64,000 nt of DNA. Origin: an uncultured Acidobacteriota bacterium. Lineage in GTDB: Bacteria > Acidobacteriota > Thermoanaerobaculia > Multivoradales > UBA5704. Positions 1,027 through 60,172 of the stretch are shown here, piece after piece. Within the stretch, counting starts at the first letter, position 1, and each line of letters begins with the position of its first letter. The position numbers and the translations under genes are program-made. The DNA is taken from positions 704,481 to 768,480 of the forward strand of contig CAVYRF010000001.1 of the NCBI GenBank assembly GCA_963770895.1, given 5' to 3'. The notes beneath the pieces were generated by a model, which did not search any database, had not been told where the DNA came from, and saw only the letters and a program-made list of their open reading frames with translations.

Positions 1027-1267
1027 ATCTCCTCCCGTTGGCAAGTACTACCAGCCGCTGACCCCTACGCGATCGGCCCATCTTGGAGGTCAGGTCCCCC
1101 CAAAGGCCATGGATCAGAATCGCGGCATAATCACTGTGTTGGCGAGTACTTTAGCACGTGACGAGGCGCACCCGCAACGCCTCGATCACCCCCTCGCGCC
1201 CCCGCCCCGCGCGCCCCCGCGAGCGACGCGCGGGCGCCACAGTGCGCCGCCGCGCCGGAGAAGGCGG

Positions 1268-3724: not shown

Positions 3725-3766
3725 AGGTCCAGCGTTGGTATCTCGGGCGGGTCGCTGGACCGCGCA

Positions 3767-4108
3767 TCATCTCCGCGGCAGCACATCCAATCCCACCAGC
3801 ACCCGTTCCGTCTGTGACAGGTCGCCGATGATCTTGCGCATCGGCGCCGGCAGCTTCCTTACCAGGGTCGGGATCGCCAGGATCTGGTCCGCCCGCGCCA
3901 GGTGCGGGTTGGCCATGAGGTCGATCACCTCGACCCGATATCTCCCTGCAAGATGCTCGCCGCAGATCTTTTTGAGGTTGCTGAGCGCCGCCATTGAGCG
4001 CGGGGTCTGGCCGGCGACGTAGAGCCGCAGGTCCCAGGTTCCCTCCTCCTGCTCGGGCGGGAGCGATGGAGGCGATGGAGACGAGGTGGTCTGGTCGTGG
4101 TTGCTCAT
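3767..4108 (-). CDS. kaiB: Circadian clock protein KaiB
   Basis: 113-aa product from the internal Met of a longer artefactual ORF: MSNHDQ...[85 protein letters not shown]. This is the canonical thioredoxin-like KaiB signature (LYVAG.TP...IPTLV...RKIIGDLS). The start ATG (4108-4106) overlaps the kaiC stop TGA (4107-4105) as ATGA. Confidence 0.9.
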
Positions 4109-5892: not shown

Positions 5893-5909
5893 GGCGTTGG
5901 TCTGGCGCC

Positions 5910-14162: not shown

Positions 14163-14855
14163 ATGAAGTGTCTCATCCGACCCACGCTGGCGGCGCTCTC
14201 CCGGCGCGCCGGCATCGCCTCGGTGCTGGCCGCGATCGCCGCGACCGCGATGGCCGTGATCGTGCTGACCGTCACCGCCGCACCGCTCGGCGCCGCGGTG
14301 GCCTGGACCGACCACCTGACGACGGCCCCTCCCGAACCGCCGCTCGCCCCGCCCGCCGGCCCCGTCTCGCCGGCCCGCAAGTACTTCTCGGACGTGGAGC
14401 TGGTGGACCAGAACGGCCACACCCAGCACCTGTACAGCGACCTGCTGCAAGGTAAAACGGTCGTCGTCGAAGCCTTCTTCACCACCTGCACCGGCGCCTG
14501 TCCGGTGATGGGGCAGAAGCTGGCCGCCCTGCAGGAATGGCTGGGAGACCGCCTCGGCAAGGACGTCTACCTGCTCTCCTTCTCCGTCGATCCGCAGACC
14601 GACACCCCGGCGCGCCTCAAGCAATACGCCCAGCAGCTGGGCGCCCGGCCAGGCTGGTACTTCCTCACCGGCAAGAAGGAAAACGTCGACTGGGCGCTCT
14701 ACAAGCTCGGCGACTACGTCGAGCAGAAGCAGGATCACTCCAACCTGCTGATCTTCGGCAACGAGCCGACCGGTCTGTGGAAAAAAGTCTTCGGTCTGGC
14801 CCAGTCCGAAGACCTGATCCACTCCCTGGATGCGGTGCTGCACGACCGCGGTTAG
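14163..14855 (+). CDS. SCO1/SenC family protein, paralog 2
   Basis: An SD (GAAGGAG) lies 6 nt upstream. It has an N-terminal TM anchor. The CxxxC motif is EAFFTTCTGACPV. DPQTDTP and GWYFLTG are typical SCO1 motifs. 230 aa. Confidence 0.85.
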   Translation: MKCLIRPTLAALSRRAGIASVLAAIAATAMAVIVLTVTAAPLGAAVAWTDHLTTAPPEPPLAPPAGPVSPARKYFSDVELVDQNGHTQHLYSDLLQGKTVVVEAFFTTCTGACPVMGQKLAALQEWLGDRLGKDVYLLSFSVDPQTDTPARLKQYAQQLGARPGWYFLTGKKENVDWALYKLGDYVEQKQDHSNLLIFGNEPTGLWKKVFGLAQSEDLIHSLDAVLHDRG

Positions 14856-16980
14856 CCGCCGCCACCGCCGCTGCTCACTGCCAGGCGGACTGCAAGCAGT
14901 TGCCTGGCTGTGGCTCCTGGCCGCGGCGCCCTGTCTGGCCCAGGGCGCCGGCGCCCCGCCTGCCGCCCAGGCGGCGATGGTCGCCGCCGGCAAGCAGATC
15001 TACCGCACCGGCCATGACGCCGCCGGCCCCGAGATCATGGCCGTGCTCGGCGGCCAGCAGGGCGCCGAGGTGACCGCCGCGGCGCTCCCCTGCGCCGGCT
15101 GTCACGGCCGCGACGGCAAGGGGCGCCCGGAAGGCGGCGTCACCCCGTCCGATCTGACCTGGGACGCGCTCAGCCGCCCCTACCAGCTCGCCGAGCCCGG
15201 CAGCCGCCGCCACCCGCCTTACGACGAGCGCACCCTCAAGCGGGCCATCACCCTGGGCATCGACGCCGGCGGCCAGGCGCTCCAGGCCGCCATGCCGCGC
15301 TACCGCCTCACCCAGGAGCAGGCCGACCACCTGATCGCCTACATCAAGACCCTGGGGCGCGAGGCCGACCCCGGCGTTACCCCCGACCGCCTGCGCCTCG
15401 GCATCCTGCTGCCGCCCGAGCCCGAAGCCGCCGCCGTGCGCCGCGCCCTGGACGCCGCCGCCGCCCGTCTCAACGCCACCGGCGGCCTCTATGCCCGCCG
15501 TCTCGACCTGCGGTACCTGCCGCCATTGCCGCAGTCTGCCGCCATGCCGGGGCCGGAATCGACCGCTTTGGCGGCGTCGGGGATGGTTGCTTTGTCCAGG
15601 CCGGAGCTGGTTGTAGTGCGGGTGTCGGCGCCGGACGCCTTGTATCGGCCGGAGGGGGCTGCAATGCGGACACCAGCGCCGGCGGCGTTGGATGCGGCTG
15701 ACGCGGAGTCACCGCAGCGGGCTTCCTCGCCAGGGCCGGAGGCTGCAATGCGGGCACTGGGGCCGGCTACTTTGGCGGCGCCGGAGCCGGCTGACGCGGA
15801 GCCTCCGGAGAGGGTTTCCTCGCAAGGTTCCGGGGCGGCCGACCCTCTCGCCTCCGGCTCGGTTGTGCCGCCGGCTTCGCCGGCGCAGTCGGCCGCCTGG
15901 CGCGCCGCGGTCGAGCGGTTCCTGGACGCCGAGCAGCCCTTTGCCCTGGTGGCGTCGGCCGCCGCCGGCGAGGAGGCGGCGCTGGCATCCCTGGCCGCCG
16001 ACCGCGAGCTGCCCGTGGTGGGCGCCCTGACCGGGGCGCCGCCGCCGGCTTCGTCGCTCGATCGCTATGTTTTCTATCTCCAGCCGGGACTTGCCGAGCA
16101 GGCGCGAGCCCTGGTCGAGGCGGTATCCGCCGGCCTGGGCGGCGTGCCGCGCCACGCCGGCCTGCTGATCGCCGCGGCGCAGCCCGAAGCCGTGGCCGCC
16201 GCCGCCCGCGACCAGTTCGACCGCACGCGCGTTCAACCCTGGGCGGCGACCTGTGCGCCGGGAGACCGCCAACTGGCCGCGCGCATCGTCGAAGCGAATC
16301 AGGCCGGCGTCGACGCCCTGGTCTTTATCGGCGGCGCCCAGGACGCGCACGACCTGCTCGCCGGCGCCGACGCCCTGGGCTGGCATCCGCGCGTCTTCCT
16401 GCTGGCGGCCCTCGCCGCCGGCGCCGTCCTGGACGCGCCCGCTGCCTTCGCCGGCCGCCTCTACCTGGCCGCCCCCGGCCTGCCGTCGGATCTCACCGCA
16501 AAAGGCGCCGCGGCGCTGCTCGCCGCCGGCCTCGCACCCCCTTCGGGAGCGCCCGCGGCAGCCGCACCGCCCGACAACCAGGCCCCCGGCACCGCAGCCA
16601 ACAGCGGCCCGGCGGCCCAGAGCCCTACGGCTACCGCTCCGGCGCCCACCGCCCCGGCAACCCGCGGCCCGGCGTCCGGAGCCTCGGCCGGCGCCCCGGC
16701 GACACAGGCCAAGGAGCTGCCGCGCGCTACGCTCTACGAGCGTCAGGCGCTGGCGGCCTTTGCGACCTTCACCGAGGCGCTGACCCACTGCGGCCGCGAC
16801 CTCAGCCGCGACCGCCTGATCGACGCGCTGGAGGGGATGCACGACTTTGACACCGGCCTGACGCCGCTGCTCACCTTCGGCCCCGAGCGGCACCTGGGGG
16901 CGTTGGGCGCCTACGTCGTCGTCTTCGATCCCGCCCGCGGCGGCCTGGCTCCGGCCGGCGGTTGGGTGGCGCCACGTTGA
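14830..16980 (+). CDS. Cytochrome c domain fused to periplasmic binding protein (type I PBP-like) domain, secreted
   Basis: Signal-like N-terminus (RRHRR...AVAWLWLLAAAPCLAQG). Haem-binding CXXCH motif (LPCAGCHGRDG). A long Pro/Ala-rich linker follows. The C-terminal region resembles a Leu/Ile/Val-binding-protein-type domain (QAGVDALVFIGGAQDAHDLL). The start codon is ambiguous because the ORF overlaps the sco2 3' end by 26 nt. Confidence 0.65.
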   Translation: MRCCTTAVSRRHRRCSLPGGLQAVAWLWLLAAAPCLAQGAGAPPAAQAAMVAAGKQIYRTGHDAAGPEIMAVLGGQQGAEVTAAALPCAGCHGRDGKGRPEGGVTPSDLTWDALSRPYQLAEPGSRRHPPYDERTLKRAITLGIDAGGQALQAAMPRYRLTQEQADHLIAYIKTLGREADPGVTPDRLRLGILLPPEPEAAAVRRALDAAAARLNATGGLYARRLDLRYLPPLPQSAAMPGPESTALAASGMVALSRPELVVVRVSAPDALYRPEGAAMRTPAPAALDAADAESPQRASSPGPEAAMRALGPATLAAPEPADAEPPERVSSQGSGAADPLASGSVVPPASPAQSAAWRAAVERFLDAEQPFALVASAAAGEEAALASLAADRELPVVGALTGAPPPASSLDRYVFYLQPGLAEQARALVEAVSAGLGGVPRHAGLLIAAAQPEAVAAAARDQFDRTRVQPWAATCAPGDRQLAARIVEANQAGVDALVFIGGAQDAHDLLAGADALGWHPRVFLLAALAAGAVLDAPAAFAGRLYLAAPGLPSDLTAKGAAALLAAGLAPPSGAPAAAAPPDNQAPGTAANSGPAAQSPTATAPAPTAPATRGPASGASAGAPATQAKELPRATLYERQALAAFATFTEALTHCGRDLSRDRLIDALEGMHDFDTGLTPLLTFGPERHLGALGAYVVVFDPARGGLAPAGGWVAPR

Positions 16981-17810
16981 TGGGCGCCGCCCCCGCCAGC
17001 GCCGGCGGGCAGGTCGGCGCTGCCTACGACTCGATCGCCGCGGCATACGATGGCTTGGTCAGCGAAGACGCCTGGATGCGCGAGCGGCTCTGGGCGCACC
17101 ACCTGCGGGTGTTTCCCGCCGGCGCGCGAGTGCTGGACGTGGCCTGTGGCACCGGCCTCGACACCCTGCACCTTGCCGCGCGGGGTCGCCGCCTGACCGG
17201 TGTGGACGCCTCGCCGGGGATGCTGGAAGCGCTGCGCGACAAGGCCGCGGCGCTCGGGCTTGCCGGTCAGGTCGCGGTGCGGGCGGGCGACGCCGGTCAG
17301 CTGGACGATTGGGAACCCGCCAGCTTCGACGGCATCCTGTCGTCTTTCGCGGGCCTCAACACCACCGACCTGTCCGCCTTCGCCGCCGCCGCCGGCCGCC
17401 TGGTACGTCCGCGCGGCCGGGTGGTGATCCACCTGCTCGCGCCGGCCGGCATCTGGGAGCGCCTGCGCCTCGCCGCCGCCGGGAGCCCCGGCGCCGCGCT
17501 GCGCCTCGGCCGCCGCCGCCAGCTCACGGTCACCATCGCCGGAAGCGCCGTGACGCACCACCTGCTGCCCGCCGGAGACCTCTATCGCCGCCACTTCCAC
17601 GCCGCCTTCCACCTGCGCCGCTGGTACGGCCTGGGCTGGCTCTGGCCGCGCCAGTTCGGCGCCCGGCTAGGCCCCCGCACCGCCCGGGTGCTGGGCGGGC
17701 TGGACGCCGCCCTGGGCCGCTATGAACCCTGGCGCCGCTGCGCCCGCTTCCTCGTTCTCGACCTGGAGCGCCGCGACGACCAGGCCGGCCCCATCGAACG
17801 GCACGGTTGA
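16980..17810 (+). CDS. Class I SAM-dependent methyltransferase
   Basis: The ATG overlaps the previous stop (TGATG). Motif I is VLDVACGTGLDTLHLAARG. The post-I acidic motif is LTGVDASPGMLE. Confidence 0.7.
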   Translation: MGAAPASAGGQVGAAYDSIAAAYDGLVSEDAWMRERLWAHHLRVFPAGARVLDVACGTGLDTLHLAARGRRLTGVDASPGMLEALRDKAAALGLAGQVAVRAGDAGQLDDWEPASFDGILSSFAGLNTTDLSAFAAAAGRLVRPRGRVVIHLLAPAGIWERLRLAAAGSPGAALRLGRRRQLTVTIAGSAVTHHLLPAGDLYRRHFHAAFHLRRWYGLGWLWPRQFGARLGPRTARVLGGLDAALGRYEPWRRCARFLVLDLERRDDQAGPIERHG

Positions 17811-17916
17811 GCCGGCCGGGCAGCCGCACCCCAATTCCCGCGGCGCCCCCGAAACCTCCCTGGTGGCGGCCCCGTAGGGTTCGGCACGGGCGGAGATGTA
17901 CTCGCGGAGAGGGCGC

Positions 17917-18837
17917 ATGCGCAAGCTGTTGGCGGTGCTGTTGGAGCTGGCGATCGGACTGATCGTCGTGGCGGTGTTGTTCGTCGACGTGCGGGTCCTG
18001 CTGCAAAGCCCAACGTTGATCTATCTGTTCCTGCCGGTCGTCTGCGTGATCACTCTTGGCGTGGGCGCCTGGCGCGGCCGCACCAGCCCGCTCGCTGGTT
18101 GGCAGGTGGTGGCGCTGATCAACCTGCCGACGCTGGTGATCGTTGCTGCGACCGCGGGACGCGCCTGGCTGCAACTGCTCGCGTTGCCGGTTCTAGGGGC
18201 GGCGTGTACCGGTCTGGGATTGGCCGTGGCGCGCGGCCCGGCGGCCCGGCGACCGTGGCGGGCCGTGGTGCCGCTTTTGGCCATCGTGCTGGTTGCCTTG
18301 GGAGCCCTGGGCCCGCGGTTCGCCCGATCGCTGGTGTTCAGCGACGAGCAGCGCCAGCCCGCCGTCGCGTTCCGCTTCACCGACCTGGGCACCGGCGCGG
18401 TCGTCGGTGCGGAGCAGCTGCGCGGCCGCGTCGTGGTGATCGACTTCTGGGCCACCTGGTGCGTGCCCTGCCAGCACGAGCTGCCCGAGCTGGACCGTAT
18501 TGCGCAGCGCTTTGCGGGCGACCGCCGGGTGGCGTTCTACGCCGTGGACGTCCCGATGACCGACACGCCGAACGACCAGGGCGACACTCCCGAGCGGGCG
18601 CGGGCACTGTTCGGCCGCCGCGGGTTTCGCCTGCCGCTCGGTTTCGACGCCGGCGGCAGCGCGGCCGTCGCGCTGCACGCCCACGGCCTGCCGACGCTCA
18701 TCATCCTGGATCGTACAGGCCAGATGCGGCTGCGCCGCGTGGGCTACACCGGTGCCGAGGACCTCGGCGCAATCCTGGACGCCACCCTCGGGAAGCTCCT
18801 GGCCGAAGGCGCCGCGACCCCGCCGAGCCCCTCCTGA
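17917..18837 (+). CDS. Membrane-anchored TlpA/ResA-like thiol-disulfide oxidoreductase (thioredoxin family)
   Basis: Multiple N-terminal TM helices, then a thioredoxin domain with VVIDFWATWCVPCQHELPEL (WCxxC). An alternative start lies at 17896. Confidence 0.8.
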   Translation: MRKLLAVLLELAIGLIVVAVLFVDVRVLLQSPTLIYLFLPVVCVITLGVGAWRGRTSPLAGWQVVALINLPTLVIVAATAGRAWLQLLALPVLGAACTGLGLAVARGPAARRPWRAVVPLLAIVLVALGALGPRFARSLVFSDEQRQPAVAFRFTDLGTGAVVGAEQLRGRVVVIDFWATWCVPCQHELPELDRIAQRFAGDRRVAFYAVDVPMTDTPNDQGDTPERARALFGRRGFRLPLGFDAGGSAAVALHAHGLPTLIILDRTGQMRLRRVGYTGAEDLGAILDATLGKLLAEGAATPPSPS

Positions 18838-18955
18838 AGAGCGGCCCCACCGCCTTGCCGCGCCGGAGCCAGGGAGGCGCGCCAAGTTGAACGATGTTGG
18901 CTTTTTGATATGTTGTAATTGCGGTCAATGTACCAACGGCCCAAGGAGGGCTCCG

Positions 18956-19084
18956 ATGAAGAAAACGCTGATCAAGATTCGTCGTGAGACGCTGATCCCA
19001 CTCGAGGATCAATCCACTTGGCGCATCGCGGTGGTGGGCGCGACGGGCAAGTGCCCTTCCATCAACATCGGGTGCAATCAGTAA
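18956..19084 (+). CDS. Small 42-aa peptide with C-terminal two-Cys loop (MKKTLIKIRRETLIPLEDQSTWRIAVVGATGKCPSINIGCNQ), candidate secreted/modified peptide
   Basis: A strong SD (AAGGAGGG) lies 6 nt upstream of the ATG. The gene sits in a local AT-rich islet (about 18880-19200) in an otherwise 70% GC window. It is followed by a stem-loop at about 19100-19132. Codon usage is atypical for this genome (aaa, att, caa, cct, aat). No family recognised. Confidence 0.35.
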   Translation: MKKTLIKIRRETLIPLEDQSTWRIAVVGATGKCPSINIGCNQ

Positions 19085-19097
19085 AGCCCGAATCGGT

Positions 19098-19134
19098 ATC
19101 GTCTGCGGGCGGGTTACAACCTGCCCGCAGATCC
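19098..19134. terminator. Hairpin (9-bp perfect GC-rich stem, tctgcgggc...gcccgcaga) between convergent genes; candidate bidirectional intrinsic terminator without clear U-tract
   Basis: gtctgcgggcgggttacaacctgcccgcagatcc lies between the 3' ends of the small ORF (+) and the PEP-mutase-like gene (−). Confidence 0.35.
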
Positions 19135-19221
19135 GGCCATTTCACCAATTCGCCCAGGAGCGCCGCCTTCGCGGCTGGTGCCGTTGTTCATCGCTGGGCT
19201 CGCCGAGCACTTGCAAATGAC

Positions 19222-20052
19222 TCATGACGCGAAGATCGCGCTGATCTCGCGCGGGCTGGCGGCCTCCTCGGCATAGGTGAAGGTGCCGTGCTCGCGCATC
19301 TCGCGCGCGGCGCGCAGGAAGGCGCCCAGCGCGGCGCGCGCCAGCGAGCTGCCGATGCTGATCCGCCGCACCCCCATCTCCGCCAGGGCGGCCTGGCTCA
19401 GCTGCACGCCGCGCAGCCCCATCACCACGTTGACCGGCCGGTCCACCGAGCTGATCACCGCCGCGATGTCTTCCCTGGTCGCCAGGCCCGGCGCATACAG
19501 CACGTCGGCGCCCGCCTCCTGGTAGGCCTGCAAGCGGGCAATCGTGTCCTTGATGTCCGGACGGCCGTGCAGGTAATTTTCGGCACGGCCGGTCAGCATG
19601 AAGGGGACGGGGAGCGCCCGCGCCGCCTCCGCCGCGGCGCGCACCCGATCCGCCGCCAGCTCGCGCTCATAGATCGGACTGTCGGCGCGCCCCGTCGCGT
19701 CCTCGATCGAACCGCCGACCACGCCCGCGGCCGCCGCCAGCCGGATCGTCTCGGCAGCCGCCTGGGGGCTGTCGCCGAAGCCGTTTTCCAGGTCGGCGCT
19801 CACCGGCAGATCGGTCGCGTACGCGATCTGCGCCAGGTGTTCCATGATCATTTCGCGGTCGACCGCGTTATCCAGCTTGCCGACCGAAAACGCGAAGCCC
19901 ATGCTGGTCGTAGCCAGCGCTTCGAAGCCAAGGTGGGCCAGCAGCCGCGCGCTGCCGATGTCCCAAGGATTGGGAATGATGAACGCCCCGGCGCGCTCAT
20001 GCAGCGCCCGAAACGCCTGTCCTTTTTCAACTTGCGAAGTCATCGTCGTCAC
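19222..20052 (-). CDS. Isocitrate lyase/PEP mutase superfamily enzyme (carboxyvinyl-carboxyphosphonate phosphorylmutase / 2-methylisocitrate lyase-like)
   Basis: 276 aa. The family pattern is PNPWDIGSARLLAHLGFEALATTS...DLENGFG...GGSIED. Confidence 0.8.
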   Translation of the reverse strand: MTTMTSQVEKGQAFRALHERAGAFIIPNPWDIGSARLLAHLGFEALATTSMGFAFSVGKLDNAVDREMIMEHLAQIAYATDLPVSADLENGFGDSPQAAAETIRLAAAAGVVGGSIEDATGRADSPIYERELAADRVRAAAEAARALPVPFMLTGRAENYLHGRPDIKDTIARLQAYQEAGADVLYAPGLATREDIAAVISSVDRPVNVVMGLRGVQLSQAALAEMGVRRISIGSSLARAALGAFLRAAREMREHGTFTYAEEAASPREISAIFAS

Positions 20053-20637
20053 CCGATCTCAAGCGCCTTGCCAGTGAACCGCCAGCAGCGGAGCTCCCGC
20101 CAGCGCCAGCGCCAGCCCAGGCCGCCGCCGTGAGCCCTCAGTATATTGCGCCGGCACCCTCGGCAGTGTGCCGCCGGGTCGGCCGGAAGGTAGCGCGCAA
20201 TGGCGGTGGGCCGGTGCCTGGGCGGCGATGCGCCGGCGAGGTGGACCGGCGGGTCGGTCGGTTGGTCGATCGGGCGGCCGAGTGGACCGGTGGACTGTGT
20301 GGTGATCGGTCGGCGGGGCGGACCGGTGGGGCCGGTGGGTCAGTTGGCGATCGGTCGGCGGCTTGGATCGGGGGTCGATGGGTCAGGCGTGCAATCAGGG
20401 CGAAAAAGGTAGCGGGTCGAGGGGGAGGTCGGGTGGTGGACCGGTGCACCGGCGACGATGGTTCGGCGGAGGGGACCGGGCGGGTAAGTCGGTTGGCGAA
20501 GCGATGGAATGATGGGGCTGCGGCGGACCGTTGGGTCGGCCGGCGAAGGGTCGGCGGGGCAATGGAGCGTTGGGCAGGTGGGGTGGTGGGCAGGGGGTGT
20601 GGGATGTGAGTCTGGCCGATGGGATAAAATTGCCGCC

Positions 20638-21915
20638 ATGCAGCTTGCATTTCTCACGCTCTTTTTGGGCCTGGTCACAGGCTCGCTGCCGCTGTCGCTC
20701 ACCGCCGGCCCCGACGTCGCCAAGGTCGAGATCGTGCTGGACGGCGCTCCGGTTCAACGCCTGGCCGCGCCGCCCTGGAGCGGCAGGATCGACTTTGGCG
20801 CCGCGTTGCTGCCGCACCACCTGGAGGCGCGCGGCCTGGATGCCCAGGGGCGCGAGGTGGCGCACGCCGAGCAGTGGATCAACGTCCCGCGCGACCCCGC
20901 GGAAGCGCAGATCGTGGTCGAAAAAGCCCAGCCGGGCCAGCCTCGCACCATCCGTCTGGCCTGGCAGAGCATCACCAGCGACGCGCCCACCAAGGTGGCG
21001 CTCACCTTTGACGGCGCGCCGCTCGCCTTCGACAGCCAGTACCGCGCCGTCCTCCCCGCCCTCCACGGCACCGACACGCACGTCGTCGCGGCCGAGCTGC
21101 AATTTGCCGGCGGCGCCACGGCGCGCCACGCCGTCGCTCTCGGCGGCGAATATGACGACGCCGTCGCCAGCGACCTGACCGCGGTCCCCGTCTGGATCGC
21201 GCCGCGCGCCGAGCTGCCGCCGCTCGCCAGCCTGCAGGGGTGGTTTGCCGAAGAGGGCCGCCCGCTCCAGGTGCAGGCTGCCGACGCTGCCGCGCCCTGG
21301 CTCCTCACCGTGCGCGACGCCGCGGCCATGAAACTGCTCCGCCTCAGTTGGATGGCCCGCGACCGCTTCCGCTTCAAGCTGCCGCCGGGCAGCCGCATGC
21401 GCTTCATCTGGCCCCAGGCCAAGCGCCATGAAGCCTCGGGCCTGCCTTCCGAGATCTTCGACAGCAGCACCTACGCCATGGACGTGGCGCGCGACAGCAT
21501 CCCCTGGCTGCTCACCCGCGTCCAGCAGCCCGGCGCGGACCATCCCCGCCTGGCCGACGCCGCCGCCGCCTCAGGCCTGGCGCTGGCCGCCGCCGCCGGC
21601 CCCCGCGCCCTGATCGTCGTCCTGGATCCCGACACCAAGGACTACAGCCACCTCGACAGCGCCACCGTCCGCCGCTACCTGGAAGCCATCCACATCCCCC
21701 TGTTCGTGTGGGCAGTCGGCCCCCCCTCCGCCGACCTGACCGCCACCTGGGGCCACGTCACCAACATCTCCGTCGAATCCGGCATGGAATCCGCCTTCGC
21801 CGCCCTGCGCCAGGTCCTGGACCGCCAGCGCATCGTCTGGCTCGCCGGCCACCACCTTCCCCAACGCATCGCCCTGACCCCAGCCGCCGCCGGCCTCCAG
21901 CTCACCCCGCCCTGA
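20638..21915 (+). CDS. Secreted hypothetical protein
   Basis: Internal Met MQLAFLTLFLGLVTGSLPLSL (signal/TM), followed by 400 aa of normal composition. No recognised domain. Confidence 0.6.
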   Translation: MQLAFLTLFLGLVTGSLPLSLTAGPDVAKVEIVLDGAPVQRLAAPPWSGRIDFGAALLPHHLEARGLDAQGREVAHAEQWINVPRDPAEAQIVVEKAQPGQPRTIRLAWQSITSDAPTKVALTFDGAPLAFDSQYRAVLPALHGTDTHVVAAELQFAGGATARHAVALGGEYDDAVASDLTAVPVWIAPRAELPPLASLQGWFAEEGRPLQVQAADAAAPWLLTVRDAAAMKLLRLSWMARDRFRFKLPPGSRMRFIWPQAKRHEASGLPSEIFDSSTYAMDVARDSIPWLLTRVQQPGADHPRLADAAAASGLALAAAAGPRALIVVLDPDTKDYSHLDSATVRRYLEAIHIPLFVWAVGPPSADLTATWGHVTNISVESGMESAFAALRQVLDRQRIVWLAGHHLPQRIALTPAAAGLQLTPP

Positions 21916-22103: not shown

Positions 22104-25100
22104 GTGTCTGACAGCGAGCACCCTTTCGCCGCGCGCGGAGCTGGCGCGGCTCCGCAGGACCTCGCGCCGGCCGGCGATCTGGACGGCGGGGACGGCCGTG
22201 ACGCGATGCTGCGGGCGGCCGGGCCGGAAGAGCGGGCCGCCCTGGCGCTGGCCTGGCTGCGGCGCCAGGCGGCGGCCACCCTCGACCGGGACGCCGCGCA
22301 GCTCCCCGCGGACCGTTCGCTGGTGGCCCTGGGATTGGACTCGCTGGCGGCGGCCGAGCTCTCGGGCGCCGTCGAAAACATCCTGAAAGTGCCGCTCGGT
22401 GTAGCCGACCTCCTGGCCGGCGCCAGCCTCGCGGAGCTGGCCGGCGACATCGCCCGCAATCTCGATGAGGCTGCGGCGGCGTCGCACGCCGGCCAAGCCG
22501 GCGGTACGGTCCACGCCGGGGACGACGGCCGCCAGGTGGTCGTGCCGGAGCCCCACCGCGCCGGCGCGCCGCCCCCCGCCGCGCCGTCGCCCCGCACCGC
22601 CCTGTCGTGGGGCCAGCGCGCCCTGTGGCTGGTGGACCGCATGGCGCCGGGCAACCCGGCCTACATCCTGGCCGGCGCCGCGCACGTCGGGGTTGGCGCC
22701 GCGCGCGGCGGCGACCTCGACGTGGCGCGGTTGTGTCAGGCCATTACCGCCCTGGTCGCTCGCCATGCGGCCTTGCGCATGCGGTGCGAGCAGGGGAGCG
22801 ATGGAGAGGTGGTGCAGGTGGTGGGCGACCAGCCGCTGTTCGGCTGGCTTGAGGTGGATGCCGGCGTCCTGAGCGAGCAAGGGTTGCACGAGCTGGTGGC
22901 AGAGGAGGCTTGGCGGCCGTTCGACCTCGCCCGCGGGCCGCTGCTGCGAGTGGCTCTGTTCCGCGGTGGCGGCCGGGCGCCGCTGCTGGTGCTCGCGGTG
23001 CATCACATCGTCGCCGACTTCTGGTCGCTCGGCGTGATGATCGACCAGCTGGGTGCGCTCTACCAGGGGCGCCTCCTGGCGCCGCTCGCGGCGACGCATG
23101 GCGAGCACGCGCGGCGCCAGGCGGAGCGGTTGGCGGGACCCGAGGGGGAGGCCCTGGCGGCCTGGTGGCGCGCCGCGCTGCCGCCGGGGGCGCCGGCGCT
23201 CGAGCTGCCGACCGACCGGCCGCGGCCGCCGGTGCAGGGATTCCGCGGTGGCGCGCGGACGCGCTGGTGGGAGCGGGAGCTGGTAGGGGAGCTCGACCGG
23301 CTGGGCCGGCGGGCCGGGGCCACGCCGTTCATGACCCTGCTGGCCGCCTACATGACGCTGCTGCACCGCTACACCGGCCAGCCGGAGCTGCGGGTGGGGA
23401 CGCCAGCGTCCGGCCGTGGCGCGCCGGACCTCTCGGGCCTGGTGGGCTACTTCGTCAATCCGCTGGTGGTGCGCGGCGAGCTGGCCGGCAACCCCGGCTT
23501 CGAGCAGCTGCTGAGCCGGGTGCGGCAGGCCGTGCTCGCGGTGTTTGCCCACCAGGACTTCCCGTTTGCGCTGCTCGCCGAGCTGCTGGGCGGCGCCCGC
23601 GATCCCAGCCGGCCGCCGGTGTTCCAGGCGATGTTCGTGTTCTACAGCGAGCGGCGCGCCGGCGAGCGCGGGATGAGCGGTTTCGCGCTGGGCGAGGCGG
23701 GCGCGCGGCTCGATCTTGGCGGCCTCACGCTCGAATCGGTGCGGCTGCCGCGGCGCGGCGCGCAGGTCGATCTGACGTTGCTGGCGGCCGATCGCGACGA
23801 TCGCGACCAGCGCGCCGAGCGCGAGGGTGCGCGGGCGGTCTCGTTGCAGTTCGACAGCGTGCTCTTCGACGGCGCCACGGCGGAGCGGATGCTGGGTCAC
23901 CTGTGCGCGCTGGCCGCCGCCGCGGTCGCCGATCCGGGGTGCGGCATCCGCGACCTGCCGCTGCTCACCGCCGGCGAGCGCCAGCAGGTGGCGGAGTGGA
24001 ACGCCACCGCCGTCGCCTGGCCTGGCGACCTGCGCCTGCACCAGCTTTTCGAAGAGCAGGCGCGCCGCACCCCGGACGCGGTGGCCGTGGTGGTCGACGC
24101 CGCTACCGACGCCGACGCCGACGCCGACGCTGATACCGGCGCCGACACCGCCGGCGCCGGGTCCCGTCGCGGCCCCGCACCGCCGGCGGCCGGCCGCGCG
24201 GTGGCTTCCGCCGCGTGCTGGACCTACCGCGGCCTCGACCGGCGCGCCGACCGGCTGGCGCGAAGGCTGCGGCAGGCCGGCGTCGGGCCGGAATCCGTGG
24301 TGGCGATCCTGGCCGAGCGCTCGGCCGCCATGGTCGCCGGCCTGCTCGCCATCCTCAAGGCGGGCGGCGCCTACCTGCCGCTCGATCCCGACCACCCCGC
24401 CGAGCGCCTGCGCCAGATGCTGCACGACTCAGGCGCCGGCGTGCTCCTGGCACAGCGCCGGCTGCTGCCGCGGCTGGGCGAGCCGGACGCGCCGCCTGTC
24501 GTCGCGGCCGCGGTGCTGGTGCTCGACGATCCCGACCGGGACGATTCCGCCCAGGACGAGCAGGACGATCCCGCCACCGGCGGTGCCGCGTTCGGCGCTG
24601 CCGCTCTTGCGCTGGCGCCCGACGGCCGGCCGGAGCGTGCGCCGCCGCCGCTGGAGCGCGCCGTCCACCCGGATAGCCTGGCGTACGTGATCTATACCTC
24701 GGGCTCGACCGGCCGGCCCAAAGGCACCATGAACACGCACCGGGGCATCGTCAACCGGCTGCTCTGGATGCAGCAGCAGTACCGATTGGCGGCCGACGAC
24801 CGGGTGTTGCAGAAGACGCCGCTGTCCTTCGACGTGTCGGTCTGGGAGCTGTTCTGGCCGCTCGCGACGGGGGCGTGCCTGGTGATGGCCCGTCCGGGCG
24901 GGCACCGCGACAGCGGCTACCTGCTGGCGGCGCTGGCGGCGCACCAGATCACCACCGTGCATTTCGTGCCGGCGATGCTGAGCGATCTTCTCGCGGCCCT
25001 GCCGCCGCGGGGCGATGCAAGCTCGGGCGCCGGCCCGTGGGACGCCGCGCCGGCAGGGCTGCGCCGGGTCGTGGCAAGCGGCGAGGCGCTGCCCTACGGT

Positions 25101-28100
25101 CTCCAGCAGCGCTATTACGCGGCGCTCGCGGCGCCGCTGCACAACCTCTACGGCCCTACCGAAGCCGCGGTCGACGTCACCCATTGGGCGACCGACCCGG
25201 ACGCCGATCGGCGGCTGGTGCCGATCGGGCGGCCGGTGGCCAACACCTGGATCCGGCTGGTCGACCGCCAGGGCGGGCTGGTGCCGATCGGTGTACCGGG
25301 CGAGCTGTGCATCGGCGGCGTGCAGCTGGCGCGCGGCTACCTGGGCCGCCCGGCGCTGACCGCCGAAAGGTTCGTGCCCGATCCGCTGGGCGACGCGGCA
25401 GGAGCGCGCCTCTACCGCACCGGCGACCTGGCGCGCTACCTGCCGGACGGTGCCATCGACTACCTGGGCCGCCTGGACCACCAGGTGAAGATCCGCGGCG
25501 TGCGCATCGAGCTCGGCGAGATCGAAGCTGCCCTGCTGCGCCATCCGGCCGTGCGCGAAGCGGTCGTCACCGTGGCCGCCGTGGCGGACCACGCCTCGCC
25601 GGCCGGCGCCGACCCGCGGCTGGCGGCCTACCTGGTGACGCGCGGGGCGGCCGCGCCGCCGCGGGCGGGAGAGCCGGCGGCTGGGGAGCCGGCCGCGCCG
25701 CCTGCTGCGCCGGCCGCCGCGCCGCCGTCCGACCTGGCCGACGACCTCCGCCGCCTGCTGCGTCAGAGCCTGCCGGAGGCGATGATCCCGGCGGCCTTCG
25801 TGGTGCTGCCCGCGCTGCCGCTGTCGGCCAACGGCAAGGTGGACCGCCGGGCGCTGCCGGCGCCGCGGTGGGGCGCCGCCGCGGTCGCGGGCACGCCGCC
25901 GCGCACTGCCGACCAGGAGATCCTGGCCGGCCTGTTCGCGGAGCTGCTGGGGCTCACGGTCGCTGGCGACCGCAGCGGCGACAGCAGCGGCAACGGCGGC
26001 AGCAGAGCTAGCGGCGACAGCAGCGACGACGGCGAAAGCAGCGGCAACGGCGGAAGCAGCGGCAACGGCGGAAGCAGAGGCAGCGTCGACAGCGGAGGCA
26101 GCGGCGCCGCGGCCGGCGGGTGGGTGGCTGGAACACAGGGGGGCGAAGCCGCGGACGCGCGCGGCGTCGCGGCGGCGAGCGGTGGGGAGCAAGGCGGCGG
26201 CCTTGGCATCGACCAGAGTTTTTTCGATCTCGGCGGCCATTCGCTGCTGGCGACCCGCCTGCTGGCGCGGGTGCGCCAGGTGTTCGCGGTGGAGCTGCCG
26301 CTGCGGCAGGTGTTCGAGGCGCCGACGGTGGCCAGGCTCGCCGCGGCGATCGCGGCGGCGCGGCGGGGCGACCTGGCGGCGGCGCCGCCGCTCGTGCCGC
26401 TGCCGCCCGCGGCTCGCCAGGGGCCGCTGGCGCTCAGCTTCGCGCAGGAGCGCATGTGGTTTCTCGACCAGCTGGAGGGCGGCGGTGCCACCTACAACAT
26501 GCCCGGCGTGCTGCGCCTCGCGGGCCCGCTGCAGGTGGCGGCGCTGCGCGCCGGGCTGGCGGAGGTGTGCCGCCGCCACGAGGTGCTGCGCACGACGTTC
26601 ACCGTGCGCGATGGCGCCGCGGGGCCGGTCGCCCGCGTCGCCCGGCCGGCCGCCGCTCCGGGGCCGCCGCTGCCGCTGGTGGATCTGTCCGGGCTGGCGG
26701 CCGGCTGCCGACAGGCGGTCGCCTCGCGGCTCGCCGCCCTGGAGGCGCGGCGCCCGTTCGACCTCGTCGCGGGCCCCGTGCTGCGCGCCGTGCTGCTGCG
26801 CCTGAGCGGCGGGCCGCCCGCGGCGGCGCAGGCGCTCCACCTGCTGCTGCTCACGCTGCACCACATCGCCGCCGATGCCGAGTCGGTCGAGGTGCTGGCG
26901 CGCGAGCTGGCCGCCCTCTATACCGCGGGTGCGACCGGCAGGCCGCCAGACGCGGCGGCGCTGCCGCCGCTCCCCGTCCAGTATGCCGACTTCGCCGCCT
27001 GGCAGCGGGCGGCGCTCAGCGGCGACCGGCGCGCGGCCGAGGTGGCTTTCTGGCGCGAGCAGCTTGCCGGCGCGCGCGGCGCACCGCCGGTGCTCGAGCT
27101 GCCCTGCGATCGGCCGCGCGGCACGGTGAGCGGCCGGCGCGGGGCGCGGCGCCCCGTGGTGCTGCCCGCCGCGCTGGCCGGCAGGCTCGCGGCGGTGGCG
27201 CGGGACCACCGCGCCACCCTGTTCATCGCCTTGCTGGCGGCCTTCGACACCCTGCTGGGCCGTTACGGCGGCCAGGACGACGTCGCGGTGGGCGTGCCGG
27301 TCGCCAATCGCGACCGCGCCCAGATCCAGCCGCTGATCGGGCTGTTCGTCAACACGCTGGTGCTGCGCCTCGACCTGTCGGGCGACCCCACCTTTGGCGA
27401 GCTCCTGGGGCGCGCGCGGCAGACGGCGCTGGCCGCCTACGGCCACCAGGAGATGCCGTTCGAGCAGCTGGTCGCCCACCTGCAGCCGCGGCGCGCAGCG
27501 GGCGAAAGCCCGTTCTTCCAGGTGGTCCTGGCGCTCCAGCCCGGCCTGGCGGCGCCGGCGATGGCGGGCCTGGCGGTCGAGCTCGCCCCCGGCGACACCG
27601 GCACCGCCAAGTTCGACCTGTCTTTGGCGCTCGACGTCGCGCCCGACGGCAGCCTTGCCGGCACCTGGACCTGGCGCGCCGGCCTGTTCGACCCGGCGAC
27701 GATCGAGCGGCTTTCGGTGCAGCTGCGGCAGCTGCTCGCGGCGGTCGCCGCGGGCGAACCGGGACCGGCGGGCCGCCTCTCCGAGCTGCCGCTGCTCGGC
27801 CCGGCCGAGCGCCACCAGCTGCAGCGGGAATGGAACGACGTCTGGCAGCCGGGCGGCGGCGACCTGCTGCATGCGGCGTTCGAGCGGCGGGCGGCGCAGG
27901 TGCCCGACGCGGTGGCGGCGGTGGAGGCCGGCCACGACGGCCTGATGGGGCGCAGCCTCACCTACGGCGAGCTGGCGGCGCGCGCCGGCCGGCTGGCGTG
28001 CCGGCTGGCGGCGCTGGGAGTCGCGCCGGAGCGGATCGTCGGCGTCTCGCTCCCGCCGTCGCTCGACCTGCTGGTGGCGCTGCTCGGCATCCTCAAGGCG

Positions 28101-31100
28101 GGCGGCGCCTACCTGGCGCTCGATCCGGCGCAGCCGCGGGAGCGCCGGGCGCAGATCCTGGCCGAGTCGTCGGCACTCCTGGTCGTCGCCGCGAGTCCTG
28201 CGGCGCCCACCGCTCCGGTTACCGCCGCCACCGCCGCCGCCTCCTCCTCCGTCATCGCGGCCACCACCGCCGCCGCCGCCGCGCGCCCGTCCGCGGTCGA
28301 GGGCCTGATGCTGCTCGGCCCGGACGGGCGCGCGGCGGCGCTGGGCGCCGCGGCCGGCGCCACCCCCCGGCGCACCCCGTTCCCCCCGGCCCCGGATCCG
28401 GACCCCGACAACGCCGCCTACGTCCTCTACACCTCCGGCTCCGGCGGCGCGCCCAAGGGCGTCGTGGTCAGCCATCGCGCCGTCGTCAACCGTCTGCGCT
28501 ACCAGGTTGCCGCCGACCTCGCGCCCGACTCGCGGGTGCTGCAACGGGCGCGCCTCGCCTTCGACGTCTCGGTGCTGGAGCTGTTCGCGCCGCTCTGGGC
28601 GGGCGCCGCGGTGGTGCTGATCGATGCCGCCCGCCAGCAGGACGCCGGCTACCTGGCCCGCGTCGTGGCCGCGCAGCAGGTCACCAACTTCAACGCGCCG
28701 CCGGCGTTGCTCCCGGCCCTGCTGGCCGAAGACGAGCTCCGCCGCTGCCGCGCGCTGCGCCGCGTGGTGCTGGGCGGCGAGCGGGTGCCGGTCGACCTCG
28801 CTCACCGATTCGCGACGATGATGGCGGCTGGGCCTGGGGCGGCGCCGTTGCTGCTGTCGCGCTACGGTCCGACCGAGGCCACCATCTCGGTGACCGAATG
28901 GCACTGCCGCCCCGCGCCGGCCGCGCCTGCCGGTTCGGCCGGACCGCTCGGCTGGCCGATCGCCGGCGCTCGCCTCCACCTGCTGGACCGCCATGGCCGC
29001 GAGGTGCCGCCCTCGGCTCCGGGCGAGCTCTGCATCGGCGGCATCTGCCTGGCGCGCGCCTATCTCGCCCGGCCCGACCTGACCGCCGCGGCGTTCATCC
29101 CGGACCCCTTCGCGGCGCCGGGCGAAGAGGCGGGCAGCCGCCTCTACCGCACCGGCGACCTGGCGCGCCGGCGCGCCGGCGGCGAGCTGGAATTCCTCGG
29201 CCGCATCGACCGCCAGGTCAAGATCCGCGGCTTCCGCGTCGAGCTGGGCGACGTCGAGGCGGCGCTCGCCCGCCACCCCGGTGTGCGCGAAACGGCGGTG
29301 GTGGACCGCGACGAGCCGGCGACCGGCGGCAGGCGCCTGGTGGCCTACGTGGTGCCCCGCCAGGCGGATGCCGGCGGGCTCGAGCCGCAGGCGCTACGGT
29401 CTTTCGTCGCGGAGCACCTGCCGCCCTACATGCTGCCCGCCGCCTGGGTCCTGCTGGACTGCCTGCCGCTCACCGCCAACGGCAAGCTGGACCGGCGGGC
29501 GCTGCCCGAGCCGGCCGACCTGTCGCCGGCGGCGGACGCGGCGGAGCCGGCTGCGCTGGACGGGGCGAGCGGCCGCCGCGGCGCCGCCCCCCGCACCCCG
29601 GCCGAAGAGCTGCTGGCGGGGATCTGGTGCCAGCTCCTGGGCGTCCGGCAGGTATCCATCGGGGACGACTTTTTTCACCTGGGCGGCCATTCGCTGCTCG
29701 CCACCCAGCTGGTGTCCCGGCTGAGCGCGACGCTGGCGGTCGACCTTCCCCTGGCCAAGGTTTTCGAGCACCCCACCCTGGCGGCGATGGCGTCGGCGAT
29801 CGAGCAGGCGCGCGGCCTGGGCGGCGCGGAGCCCACCGTCGCCGGGCTCGCCGGCCGTCTGACGCCGGCGCACGAAGCCGGCGGCGGCGCCGGCCGGGGC
29901 GACGGCGCGCGGCCGGTGCCGCTACCGCTCCTGCCGCGGCAGGCGGGCGGCGCCGCGGCGCAGCTGCCGCTGTCGTTTGCCCAGCAGCGGCTCTGGTTCC
30001 TGGACCGCCTGGCGCCCGGCTCGCCGGCCTACAACATGCCGCTGGCGGTGCGGCTCTCCGGCGACCTGGACATCCCCGCCCTGGCTGCCGGCGTCGCCGC
30101 CCTGGTGGCGCGGCACGAGACCCTGCGCACCACCTTCCACGAGACCGCGGGCGAGCCCTGGCAGCGGATCGCGCCGCCGCTCGCCGCCGGTGCCAGCTCC
30201 GGCGCCGGCGCCGGCGCGGCCGCCACAAGCGCGCTGCCGGTCGTCGACCTGCGGGCGCTGGTGGACGCCGGTGAACCGGACGGCGAGCCGGGCGGTGGGC
30301 CGGGGCTGGATGCCGGCTGGCCAGGTCAGCCGGATGGTTTCGCGCCGCTGCCGCTGCCGCGGCGCGCGCTCGCCGCGGCGCTCGACCTGGCCGCGGCCGC
30401 GGCGCGGCGGCCCTTCGACCTGGCGCGCGGCCCGCTCTTCCGGCCCCTCCTGCTGCGGTTGACCGGGCGCGAGCACCTCTGGCTGGGGACCATGCACCAC
30501 ATCGTCTCCGACGGCTGGTCGCTGGGCGTCCTGGTGCGCGAGCTGACCGCCGTCTACGCCGCGCTGGCGGCCGGCCGGGAGCCCCGTCTGCCGGCCCTGC
30601 CGGTGCAGTACGCCGACTACGCCGCCTGGCAGCGCCAGCGCCTGTCCGGCGACCTCTTGGCGGCGCAGATCGCCCACTGGCGCGAGCGCCTGGCGGGCCT
30701 GCCGGCGCGGCTCGACCTGCCGGTGGACCGGCCGCGCCCGGCCGTCGAAACCGTCGCCGGCGCCCAGCGGCGCTGGCGCCTGGCCGGCGACGTGGCCGGC
30801 CGGCTGCGCCAGCTGGCGGCAGCGTCGGGGGCGACCCCGTTCATGGTCCTGGTCGCCGCCTTCCAGGCGCTCCTGGGGCGCTGGTCCGGTCAACAGGACC
30901 TGGCGGTTGGCACGCCGATCGCCGGCCGCAACCGCATCGAGATCGAAGGCCTGATCGGCTTCTTCGTCAACACCCTGGTGCTGCGCGCCGATCTCTCCAG
31001 CGGGCCGCGGCGCCTGGCGTTCGACCAGCTGCTGGCCCGCACCCGCGAGGCGACCCTGGCCGCGTACGCCCATCAGGAGCTGCCGTTCGAACGGCTGGTC

Positions 31101-51785: not shown

Positions 51786-51786
51786 A

Positions 51787-53367: not shown

Positions 53368-53469
53368 TCGATCCCCTACTCAAGGCCGCTGGCGATGGCG
53401 AGCGGCGGCAATGCTCAACTTTCGATCGTTGGCGGCGCGCCCGAGCCGACGAACTGATCTCCTAAGACC

Positions 53470-60144: not shown

Positions 60145-60172
60145 CCTCGCCGCCGGCGCGCGGCGCGCTGGT

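What the first reader, a model, noticed from the sequence alone, without database searches (positions are those of the whole stretch)
18880..19200. AT-rich islet encoding a strongly SD-preceded 42-aa peptide with a C-terminal CPSINIGC two-Cys loop
GC content drops locally, and the ORF has atypical codon usage for this genome, consistent with horizontal acquisition. The product has a charged N-terminal half and a short C-terminal core with two Cys that could form an 8-residue disulfide or thioether ring. This resembles a leader/core arrangement of a small bacteriocin, signalling peptide or RiPP precursor. It sits next to thiol-disulfide oxidoreductase genes.
Basis: seen in the sequence. Interest (0 to 1): 0.5.

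Follow-up and report, generated by a model that had tools for sequence, protein, structure and literature searches.

The report
Orphan 42-residue two-cysteine peptide gene
A small, probably genuine gene for a 42-residue peptide sits in a low-GC gap of a very GC-rich acidobacterial genome, but it occurs in only two near-identical genomes and nothing nearby supports the antibiotic- or signal-peptide-precursor idea, so its function stays unknown.

Summary
The ORF at 18956-19084 (+) encodes MKKTLIKIRRETLIPLEDQSTWRIAVVGATGKCPSINIGCNQ. A perfect AAGGAGG lies 6 nt upstream and a 14-bp hairpin follows. The ORF is 55% GC in a 73% GC window and uses atypical codons.

It is probably a real coding gene:
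- GC3 periodicity is significant (p = 0.002 and 0.0006).
- SD, frame, start, stop and hairpin are kept in the one relative, JGI contig L001 (81% aa identity).
- The ORF has no indels, while the surrounding spacers are indel-rich.

It is also an extreme orphan. Searches of 5.8 and 1.8 billion proteins, two genome scans, two metagenome scans, viral contigs, phages, plasmids and PDB sequences found no true relative. Redoxin orthologues at 57-67% identity lack it, so its position beside the TlpA-like redoxin looks incidental.

Between the two genomes it changes by 9 non-synonymous and 1 synonymous substitutions (dN/dS about 2.8). Ordinary purifying selection is rejected; neutrality is not.

The RiPP/bacteriocin reading is untested rather than supported. 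The 64 kb hold no lanthipeptide, YcaO, SPASM or DUF692 enzyme and no C39 exporter, and the peptide fails the published double-glycine signal pattern.

Verdict: a lineage-restricted small gene of unknown role. Interest is low.

The parts
18886..18942 (+). AT-rich box (44% GC) upstream of the SD. It contains the block GCTTTTTGATATGTT, which is conserved in L001. Possibly a promoter, but unproven.
   Evidence: GC per segment comes and the alignment to L001. The sigma-70 consensus scan found no promoter. No terminator-like fold separates it from the redoxin gene, so read-through from the redoxin is also possible.
18943..18949 (+). Shine-Dalgarno sequence AAGGAGG, 6 nt before the ATG.
   Evidence: 1 match against 0.07 expected. 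It is kept in L001 with 5-nt spacing.
18956..19084 (+). 42-codon ORF plus TAA, encoding MKKTLIKIRRETLIPLEDQSTWRIAVVGATGKCPSINIGCNQ.
   Evidence: GC1/2/3 is 0.47/0.44/0.74, and Fisher p for periodicity is 0.002 here and 0.0006 in L001. The product is 81% identical in L001 and the ORF has no indel.
19101..19132 (.). Strong 14-bp GC-rich hairpin between the convergent peptide and PEP-mutase-family genes. Probably a bidirectional terminator, although it has no U-tract.
   Evidence: dG is -32.1 kcal/mol with z = -4.6. The L001 version has z = -6.7. The stem is invariant apart from one extra G in L001. The simple terminator scan did not call it because no T-run follows.
19135..19207 (.). 73-nt spacer segment present in the window but absent from L001. 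It is not part of the conserved unit.
   Evidence: Alignment.

Best explanation
This is a genuine, stand-alone, lineage-restricted small protein-coding gene. The unit consists of an AT-rich upstream box, a consensus SD, an ATG, 42 codons and a strong terminator-type hairpin. It lies in the gap between a TlpA-like redoxin gene and a convergent PEP-mutase-family gene.

Shown:
- The anatomy described above.
- The coding-type 3-base periodicity.
- SD, frame, start, stop and hairpin are kept in the one related genome, while the surrounding spacers are indel-rich.
- The atypical composition and codon usage.
- Its absence from more distant relatives.
- The fast amino-acid change between the two genomes.

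Inferred:
- The gene was acquired or arose recently in one narrow Thermoanaerobaculia-like lineage.
- It is functionally independent of the neighbouring redoxin.
- Its product is a cationic (net +4), intrinsically disordered peptide.

My committed but weak guess at mechanism, about 0.25 on its own: it is a competition- or signal-type precursor. It would be cleaved near the conserved V-V-G-A-T-G, leaving an 11-13-residue piece closed by C33-C40. The ring would be a disulfide, or T30-C33 and S35-C40 thioethers if a lanthionine synthetase acts on it. The machinery would be encoded elsewhere in the genome. The confidence below refers to the claim that this is a real, independent, translated orphan gene.
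For: - SD plus ATG: 1 match against 0.07 expected. The only other strong SD-ATG sites in the window precede long ORFs with gene-like composition.
- GC3 is 0.74-0.77 against GC1/GC2 of 0.44-0.47 in both genomes, p = 0.002 and 0.0006. Positions 1 and 2 have therefore resisted the genome's GC pressure.
- A 42-aa homologue with the same start and stop sits in the same gene order on L001.
- My count from the alignments is about 18 indel events in about 840 nt of aligned non-coding spacer, against 0 in the 129-nt ORF. My Poisson estimate for this is P about 0.06.
- By my count the ORF is 92% identical in DNA, against about 84% for the upstream spacer.
- The hairpin is strong and conserved.
- The ORF body has no significant RNA structure on either strand (z -0.75, +0.50, -0.96) and the two predicted folds differ. 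No Rfam family matches.
- The islet is not a repeated element.
- For the precursor guess only: the two Cys, T30, S35 and VVGATG are invariant. AlphaFold sees no fold, with pLDDT 48. Fast protein evolution and odd codon usage are also typical of such peptides; that last point rests on general knowledge.
Against: - Only two genomes carry the ORF. They are close (flanking genes 93-97% identical in DNA), so conservation carries little weight.
- The ORF has 9 non-synonymous and 1 synonymous changes, dN/dS 2.83. This is indistinguishable from neutral drift (p = 0.29) and inconsistent with the constraint on the neighbours (p = 0.0002-0.01).
- No expression data are available.
- No promoter was recognised.
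- Against the precursor guess specifically: there is no maturase, exporter or immunity gene in 64 kb.
- The peptide fails the double-glycine signal pattern.
- It matches no leader family model.
Confidence: 0.6

Rival explanations
1. The ORF is non-functional. The region would be an intergenic promoter/terminator spacer that happens to contain an open frame, or a decaying remnant of a recently acquired gene. It would be drifting neutrally.
For: - dN/dS is 2.83 with 9 non-synonymous and 1 synonymous changes. Neutrality is not rejected (p = 0.29) and purifying selection like that on the neighbours is rejected.
- There is no homologue beyond one near-identical genome.
- It is absent downstream of redoxin orthologues.
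- The codon-adaptation index is low, 0.43.
- By my estimate a 42-codon open frame at 55% GC has about a 0.19 chance per frame.
Against: - GC3 periodicity is significant in both genomes. Neutral non-coding DNA would not show it.
- A perfect SD at ideal spacing is kept in both genomes.
- The ORF has no indel although the surrounding spacers are indel-rich.
- The ORF is more conserved than the adjacent spacer.
- A decaying remnant of a once-real gene would still show the periodicity, so that version is harder to exclude.
Confidence: 0.2
2. The product is a cytoplasmic small protein that is never exported or processed, for example a regulator, a stress protein, or a thiol- or metal-binding micro-protein. 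The resemblance to a leader/core layout would be coincidental.
For: - There is no Sec or Tat signal, no lipobox and no canonical double-glycine signal in the sequence. This rests on my reading of the sequence plus the pattern from PMC12219008.
- No exporter lies nearby.
- The neighbourhood has a copper/redox theme: SCO1/SenC, a cytochrome c fusion, TlpA and a multicopper-oxidase fragment.
Against: - The neighbourhood link is not conserved in relatives.
- Two cysteines alone do not make a recognised metal site.
- No fold is predicted.
- Fast amino-acid turnover is unusual for a housekeeping micro-protein.
Confidence: 0.15
3. The functional product is a small non-coding or dual-function RNA of about 190-240 nt ending in the hairpin, and the ORF is incidental.
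For: - The whole 216-nt unit folds better than shuffles, z = -3.0.
- Synonymous sites are as conserved as the rest, with only 1 synonymous change.
- The unit ends in a strong conserved hairpin.
Against: - The low z-score comes from the terminal hairpin.
- The ORF body is unstructured (z -0.75 and +0.50) and folds differently in the two genomes.
- No Rfam family matches even at E <= 1.
- An sRNA would explain neither the SD plus ATG nor the 3-base periodicity.
Confidence: 0.05

Closest known systems
Class II microcins and other double-glycine-leader bacteriocins exported by peptidase-containing ABC transporters (PCATs)
   Same: - Small, cationic, ribosomally made peptide of a Gram-negative bacterium.
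- It has a G-A dipeptide preceded by hydrophobic V-V.
- It has a pair of cysteines near the C-terminus. A single disulfide is reported for MccV and EN43 in PMC12219008.
- It evolves fast and its composition is atypical.
   Different: - It fails the published signal pattern [R/K/E/Q/I]-x-[IL]-x9-G-[GAS]. With G28-A29 as the site, the required I/L position is D18.
- The implied leader is 29 aa, not 15-18.
- The mature piece would be about 13 aa, far below 5-10 kDa.
- No PCAT, membrane-fusion protein or immunity gene lies in the 64 kb.
Lanthipeptide precursors (LanA, classes I-IV)
   Same: - Charged N-terminal part and short Cys/Ser/Thr-containing C-terminal part.
- T30-x2-C33 and S35-x4-C40 spacings would allow two N-to-C (methyl)lanthionine rings. 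All four residues are invariant in the two sequences.
   Different: - No LanB/LanC, LanM, LanKC or LanL domain is present in the window.
- By my reading of the sequence, no recognised leader motif is present (FNLD box, ELxxxxGG/GA, ILELQ).
- No NCBIfam or Pfam precursor model matches.
Copper-binding Cys-derived RiPPs (methanobactin MbnA, bufferin BufA)
   Same: - Short Cys-bearing C-terminal part after a K/R-rich 'I-K-I-x-[KR]-[KR]-x-T-L'-like N-terminus. That comparison is recalled from memory, so it is a lead only.
- The neighbourhood contains copper-handling genes (SCO1/SenC, TlpA, a multicopper oxidase fragment).
   Different: - No DUF692/MNIO enzyme (MbnB/BufB) or partner (MbnC/DUF2063) is present in the window.
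- No Sec signal as in bufferins.
- The copper-gene neighbourhood is not conserved with the peptide.
HEAT_PBS-type repeats (the only non-self database hit, P0003, a NACHT plus HEAT-repeat protein)
   Same: Residues 11-29 (ETLIPLEDQSTWRIAVVGA) resemble the repeat unit ELIPLLQDQSEWVRSSVVEAL, at 41-63% identity over 13-39 residues.
   Different: - Every alignment needs gaps, usually two one-residue gaps per repeat.
- The single-sequence score is only 19 bits, and the 59-bit profile score sums 10 weak repeat matches.
- No Pfam HEAT model matches the peptide.
- One truncated repeat cannot form a HEAT fold.
MbtH-like proteins (small NRPS partner proteins)
   Same: It is a small ORF 3 kb from a 4,114-aa NRPS. 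Its 'EDQSTW' is reminiscent of the MbtH 'E-x-Q-x-S-x-W-P' signature; that signature is recalled from memory, so it is a lead only.
   Different: - The spacing of the signature is off by one residue.
- The second and third invariant Trp are missing.
- It is 42 aa rather than about 65-75.
- Pfam MbtH does not match at E <= 10.

Membership tests
Class II microcin / double-glycine-leader bacteriocin | N-terminal 15-18-aa signal fitting M...[R/K/E/Q/I]-x-[IL]-x9-G-[GAS] (motifs 1 and 2 of PMC12219008) | tested here: not met
   The only G-[GAS] is G28-A29. Ten residues upstream is D18, not I/L, and the implied signal is 29 aa. No NCBIfam bacteriocin-leader model matches at E <= 10.
Class II microcin / double-glycine-leader bacteriocin | A peptidase-C39 ABC transporter (PCAT), with a membrane-fusion protein and usually an immunity gene, encoded nearby | tested here: not met
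   Pfam and NCBIfam scans of about 30 ORFs across the 64 kb found no Peptidase_C39, ABC transporter or HlyD domain. The rest of the genome could not be read.
Class II microcin / double-glycine-leader bacteriocin | Antibacterial activity of the secreted mature peptide | not testable with these tools
   This needs expression and secretion assays.
Lanthipeptide precursor (LanA) | A lanthionine synthetase (LanB+LanC, LanM, LanKC or LanL) in the same gene cluster | tested here: not met
   No LANC_like, Lant_dehydr, DUF4135 or kinase-lyase-cyclase architecture appears in the window.
Lanthipeptide precursor (LanA) | Ser/Thr upstream of Cys at ring-forming spacing in the core | tested here: met
   T30-x2-C33 and S35-x4-C40 are invariant in both sequences. 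This is necessary but very non-specific.
Lanthipeptide precursor (LanA) | Match to a known precursor or leader family model | tested here: not met
   No Pfam or NCBIfam hit at E <= 10.
MNIO/DUF692-dependent Cys-modified RiPPs (methanobactin, bufferin) | An adjacent DUF692 (MbnB/BufB) enzyme with its partner protein | tested here: not met
   No PF05114 or DUF2063 hit among the window ORFs.
Radical SAM-modified RiPP precursor (sacti-/ranthipeptide etc.) | An adjacent radical SAM maturase with a SPASM/twitch domain, usually with a RiPP recognition element | tested here: not met
   The four radical SAM genes in the window are of the B12-binding type. They lie 19-34 kb away among glycosyltransferase and polysaccharide genes, and no SPASM domain was reported.
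MbtH-like protein | Match to Pfam MbtH (PF03621) with its three invariant Trp | tested here: not met
   No Pfam hit at E <= 10. The peptide has one Trp.
HEAT_PBS repeat protein (fragment) | Significant match to HEAT-type repeat models, or ungapped similarity to a repeat unit | tested here: not met
   No Pfam HEAT model matches. All BLASTP alignments need gaps, usually two per repeat. The single-sequence score is 19 bits.
Structured small RNA / known cis-regulatory RNA | An Rfam match, or significant and conserved secondary structure beyond the terminator hairpin | tested here: not met
   No Rfam hit at E <= 1. The ORF body has z of -0.75 and +0.50 with different folds in the two genomes.

The most novel reading that the evidence does not exclude
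The ORF is the precursor of a previously unseen, very small (11-13-residue) ring peptide. The ring would be a C33-C40 disulfide loop or a two-ring T30-C33 / S35-C40 lanthipeptide. Its 29-31-residue leader belongs to no described leader family. It would be made by an uncultured Thermoanaerobaculia-like acidobacterium using maturation and export genes encoded elsewhere, and the fast amino-acid turnover would reflect diversifying selection.
Probability: 0.12. Interest if true: 0.5.

Novelty: new member of a known kind. Interest (0 to 1): 0.2.

Why it matters
If the peptide is made, it adds one more taxonomically restricted micro-protein from an uncultured, very GC-rich acidobacterial lineage. Such genes are routinely missed or left unnamed by annotation. 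In practical terms it is a cheap synthetic target (42 aa, or a 13-aa looped core) that could be tested for antimicrobial or signalling activity.

It would matter more only if a maturase or exporter elsewhere in the genome acts on it, because its leader matches no known family. As it stands, the main value of this check is negative. Neither the proximity to thiol-disulfide oxidoreductases nor the leader/core look is evidence of a RiPP locus here.

Tried and rejected
- Curated families for the peptide: Pfam, NCBIfam, PADLOC, PHROGs and PDB sequences gave nothing at E <= 10.
- Homologue hunting gave only the peptide itself, one 81% relative and one spurious repeat protein.
  - Word-indexed search of 5.8 billion proteins.
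  - Exhaustive HMMER profile search of 1.84 billion representatives.
  - The peptide against genome contigs.
  - Leader patterns against metagenome contigs, and a degenerate core pattern INIGCNQ*. All 25 core-pattern matches were chance hits in low-GC DNA.
  - Viral contigs, plasmids and phages.
- Synteny test: redoxin orthologues of 61-65% identity in L002 and L082-L086 have no homologous or analogous small Cys ORF downstream.
- HEAT-repeat origin: rejected as repeat-amplified weak similarity.
- MbtH-like protein, lasso-peptide leader (Y-x2-P-x-L...T-x), Tat or Sec signal, and lipobox: considered by reading the sequence and rejected because the spacings or residues do not fit.
- sRNA: rejected.
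- Repeated or mobile element: the islet is unique in the window.
- Promoter and terminator consensus scans found nothing. No terminator lies between the redoxin and the ORF.
- AlphaFold gave no confident model, pLDDT 48, so no fold search was run.

Full report
**Observation**

- The ORF runs from ATG at 18956 to TAA at 19082-19084 on the + strand. It encodes MKKTLIKIRRETLIPLEDQSTWRIAVVGATGKCPSINIGCNQ.
- A perfect AAGGAGG lies at 18943-18949, 6 nt before the ATG. That arrangement occurs once in the window against 0.07 expected from shuffles.
- A looser SD plus ATG search finds only three sites on both strands. The other two precede long ORFs with gene-like composition.
- GC falls to 0.535-0.625 in 200-nt windows, in a 73% GC window. 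The upstream box 18886-18942 is 44% GC and the ORF is 55%.
- The codon-adaptation index, computed against 14 confident genes of the window, is 0.43 against 0.58-0.81 for those genes.
- Sixteen bases after the stop codon there is a 14-bp hairpin (19101-19132) with dG of -32 kcal/mol and z = -4.6. It sits between this ORF and the convergent downstream gene.

**Neighbourhood**

| Coordinates | Strand | Gene |
|---|---|---|
| 14163-14855 | + | SCO1/SenC |
| 14830-16980 | + | cytochrome c / periplasmic-binding fusion |
| 16962-17810 | + | methyltransferase |
| 17896-18837 | + | TlpA-like redoxin with a long membrane N-terminus |
| 18956-19084 | + | the peptide |
| 19222-20052 | - | PEP-mutase/isocitrate-lyase superfamily enzyme |
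| 20509-21915 | + | protein with no family hit |
| 22104-34448 | + | 4,114-aa NRPS |

About 30 ORFs across the whole 64 kb were scanned. None is a lanthionine synthetase, YcaO enzyme, SPASM radical SAM enzyme, DUF692 enzyme, C39-peptidase ABC exporter or HlyD-type protein. The four radical SAM genes are of the B12-binding type. They lie 19-34 kb away inside a glycosyltransferase/polysaccharide cluster.

**Is it a gene?**

Four lines of evidence say yes.
1. The SD and start codon described above.
2. The 3-base periodicity. GC3 is 0.74 (0.77 in the relative) against GC1/GC2 of 0.44-0.47, with Fisher p = 0.002 and 0.0006. In a 73% GC genome this pattern means that codon positions 1 and 2 have been held AT-rich while position 3 followed the genomic bias.
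3. Conservation of the unit. The only relative, P0002 on JGI metagenome contig L001, is also 42 aa and 81% identical. It lies in the same order: methyltransferase, redoxin, peptide, PEP-mutase family, unknown gene, NRPS. SD, start, stop and hairpin are all retained.
4. Indels. The non-coding spacers between these two genomes are indel-rich. I count about 18 events in about 840 aligned nt, including the G-rich spacer at 20.1-20.6 kb, while the 129-nt ORF has none. My Poisson estimate is P about 0.06.

An RNA-only reading is not supported. The ORF body has no significant structure on either strand, and it folds differently in the two genomes. No Rfam family matches.

**What weakens the case**

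- The two genomes are very close, with flanking genes 93-97% identical in DNA.
- Within the ORF there are 9 non-synonymous changes and 1 synonymous change. dN/dS is 2.83, against 0.14-0.30 for four flanking genes.
- Purifying selection of the strength seen in the neighbours is rejected (p = 0.0002-0.01). Neutrality is not rejected (p = 0.29).
- The peptide is therefore either evolving very fast under relaxed or diversifying selection, or it is a recently dead ORF. Two sequences cannot decide between these.

**Distribution**

The peptide is an extreme orphan.
- The word-indexed search of 5.8 billion proteins found only the peptide itself and P0002.
- The exhaustive HMMER profile search of 1.84 billion representatives added only P0003. 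P0003 is a 1,373-aa NACHT plus HEAT-repeat protein, and its repeats (ELIPLLQDQSEWVRSSVVEALGEIG) resemble residues 11-29 of the peptide.
- That hit is repeat amplification. Each alignment needs gaps. The single-sequence score is 19 bits, against a maximum of 12 for 400 shuffles. This is far below database-wide significance, and Pfam HEAT models do not match.
- DNA-level scans found nothing. These covered representative genomes, metagenomes with leader patterns and with a core pattern, viral contigs, plasmids and phages.
- The closest redoxin orthologue in the representative genomes is a Thermoanaerobaculia MAG at 61% identity. In the protein database, apart from L001 at 94%, the closest redoxin relatives are 57-67% identical, and those that carry a source name are Thermoanaerobaculia MAGs. 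This places the source in or near that acidobacterial class.
- In six such loci the redoxin is followed by unrelated genes or by GC-rich spacers (66-73% GC). None has a homologous or analogous small Cys ORF.

The redoxin is therefore a conserved clade gene, and the peptide islet is a recent addition next to it. The adjacency does not indicate a functional pairing.

**Comparison with known kinds**

- **Double-glycine signals.** The N-terminus (MKK..IKIRRETL.PL) and the V-V-G-A motif recall double-glycine-type leaders. The peptide nevertheless fails the published class II microcin signal pattern [R/K/E/Q/I]-x-[IL]-x9-G-[GAS] with its 15-18-aa signal (PMC12219008). With G28-A29 as the cleavage site, the required I/L is D18 and the leader would be 29 aa.
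- **Lanthipeptides.** T30-x2-C33 and S35-x4-C40 are invariant and compatible with lanthionine rings, but that feature is non-specific and no synthetase is nearby.
- **Other candidates.** By reading the sequence, lasso-leader, Tat or Sec signal, lipobox and MbtH signatures do not fit in spacing or residues. No curated model matches.
- **Structure.** AlphaFold gives no fold, with pLDDT 48. This fits a disordered peptide but is otherwise uninformative.

**Conclusion**

| Reading | Confidence |
|---|---|
| Real, independently translated, recently acquired or recently born small gene ended by a hairpin terminator | about 0.6 |
| Non-functional open frame or decaying remnant | about 0.2 |
| Cytoplasmic micro-protein that is never processed | about 0.15 |
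| Small RNA | about 0.05 |

The best-supported reading is the first: a fast-evolving, cationic, disordered two-Cys peptide. The leader/core exported-peptide mechanism is my preferred functional guess, but it stands at only about 0.25. Every membership test that could be run for known bacteriocin and RiPP families failed or was non-specific.

The finding is a well-formed but ordinary orphan small ORF. Interest is low unless whole-genome mining or peptidomics connects it to a maturase or exporter.

Noticed in passing
window 20180-20620: A G-rich, C-poor non-coding spacer of about 440 nt (GC skew +0.4 to +0.5) made of degenerate GGTCGG/GACCGGTGG-like units. It lies between the divergent PEP-mutase-family gene and the unknown gene, whose real start is probably the ATG at 20638. 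L001 has it too, with four large indels (42, 42, 31 and 14 nt). There is no meaningful Rfam hit, and its function is unknown.
   Followed up: partly
window 22104-34448 (+): A 4,114-aa NRPS with three adenylation, four condensation and four carrier-domain matches plus a terminal thioesterase. A 468-aa protein with no Pfam or NCBIfam hit precedes it (20509-21915). The start of the cluster is conserved on L001.
   Followed up: no
window 38399-40816 (+), 46896-49463 (-), 50388-51803 (-), 51787-53379 (-): Four B12-binding radical SAM genes are clustered with GT4 glycosyltransferases and a Polysacc_synt flippase (56828-60783). This is an unusual concentration of such enzymes in a polysaccharide or lipid-type cluster.
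   Followed up: no
window 1-1047 (-), 14163-18837 (+): The region has a copper/redox theme: an MnxG-like multicopper-oxidase fragment at the window edge, SCO1/SenC, a cytochrome c-periplasmic binding protein fusion, and a TlpA-like redoxin. The redoxin's roughly 150-residue multi-pass membrane N-terminus is conserved across about 50 homologues; those that carry a source name are Thermoanaerobaculia MAGs.
   Followed up: partly
P0003 (database protein), residues about 690-1200: A NACHT plus HEAT-repeat protein whose repeat unit ELIPLLQDQSEWVRSSVVEALGEIG resembles peptide residues 11-29. It was the only non-self hit among 1.84 billion proteins. I judge it repeat-amplified chance similarity, but the resemblance (13 of 21 residues in the best repeat) is striking.
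   Followed up: yes
window 19135-19207 and L001 3271-3331: The spacers flanking the peptide unit differ by large indels. A 73-nt segment is present only in the window, downstream of the hairpin. A 61-nt segment is present only in L001, upstream of the AT box. The SD-ORF-hairpin block is collinear between the two.
   Followed up: yes
window 1268-6741 (-), 35403-38283 (-): A KaiC-like double-ATPase gene lies next to a PAS/GAF hybrid histidine kinase-response regulator. Separately, an Nramp transporter lies near a DtxR/MntR-type metal repressor that has a FeoA domain.
   Followed up: no
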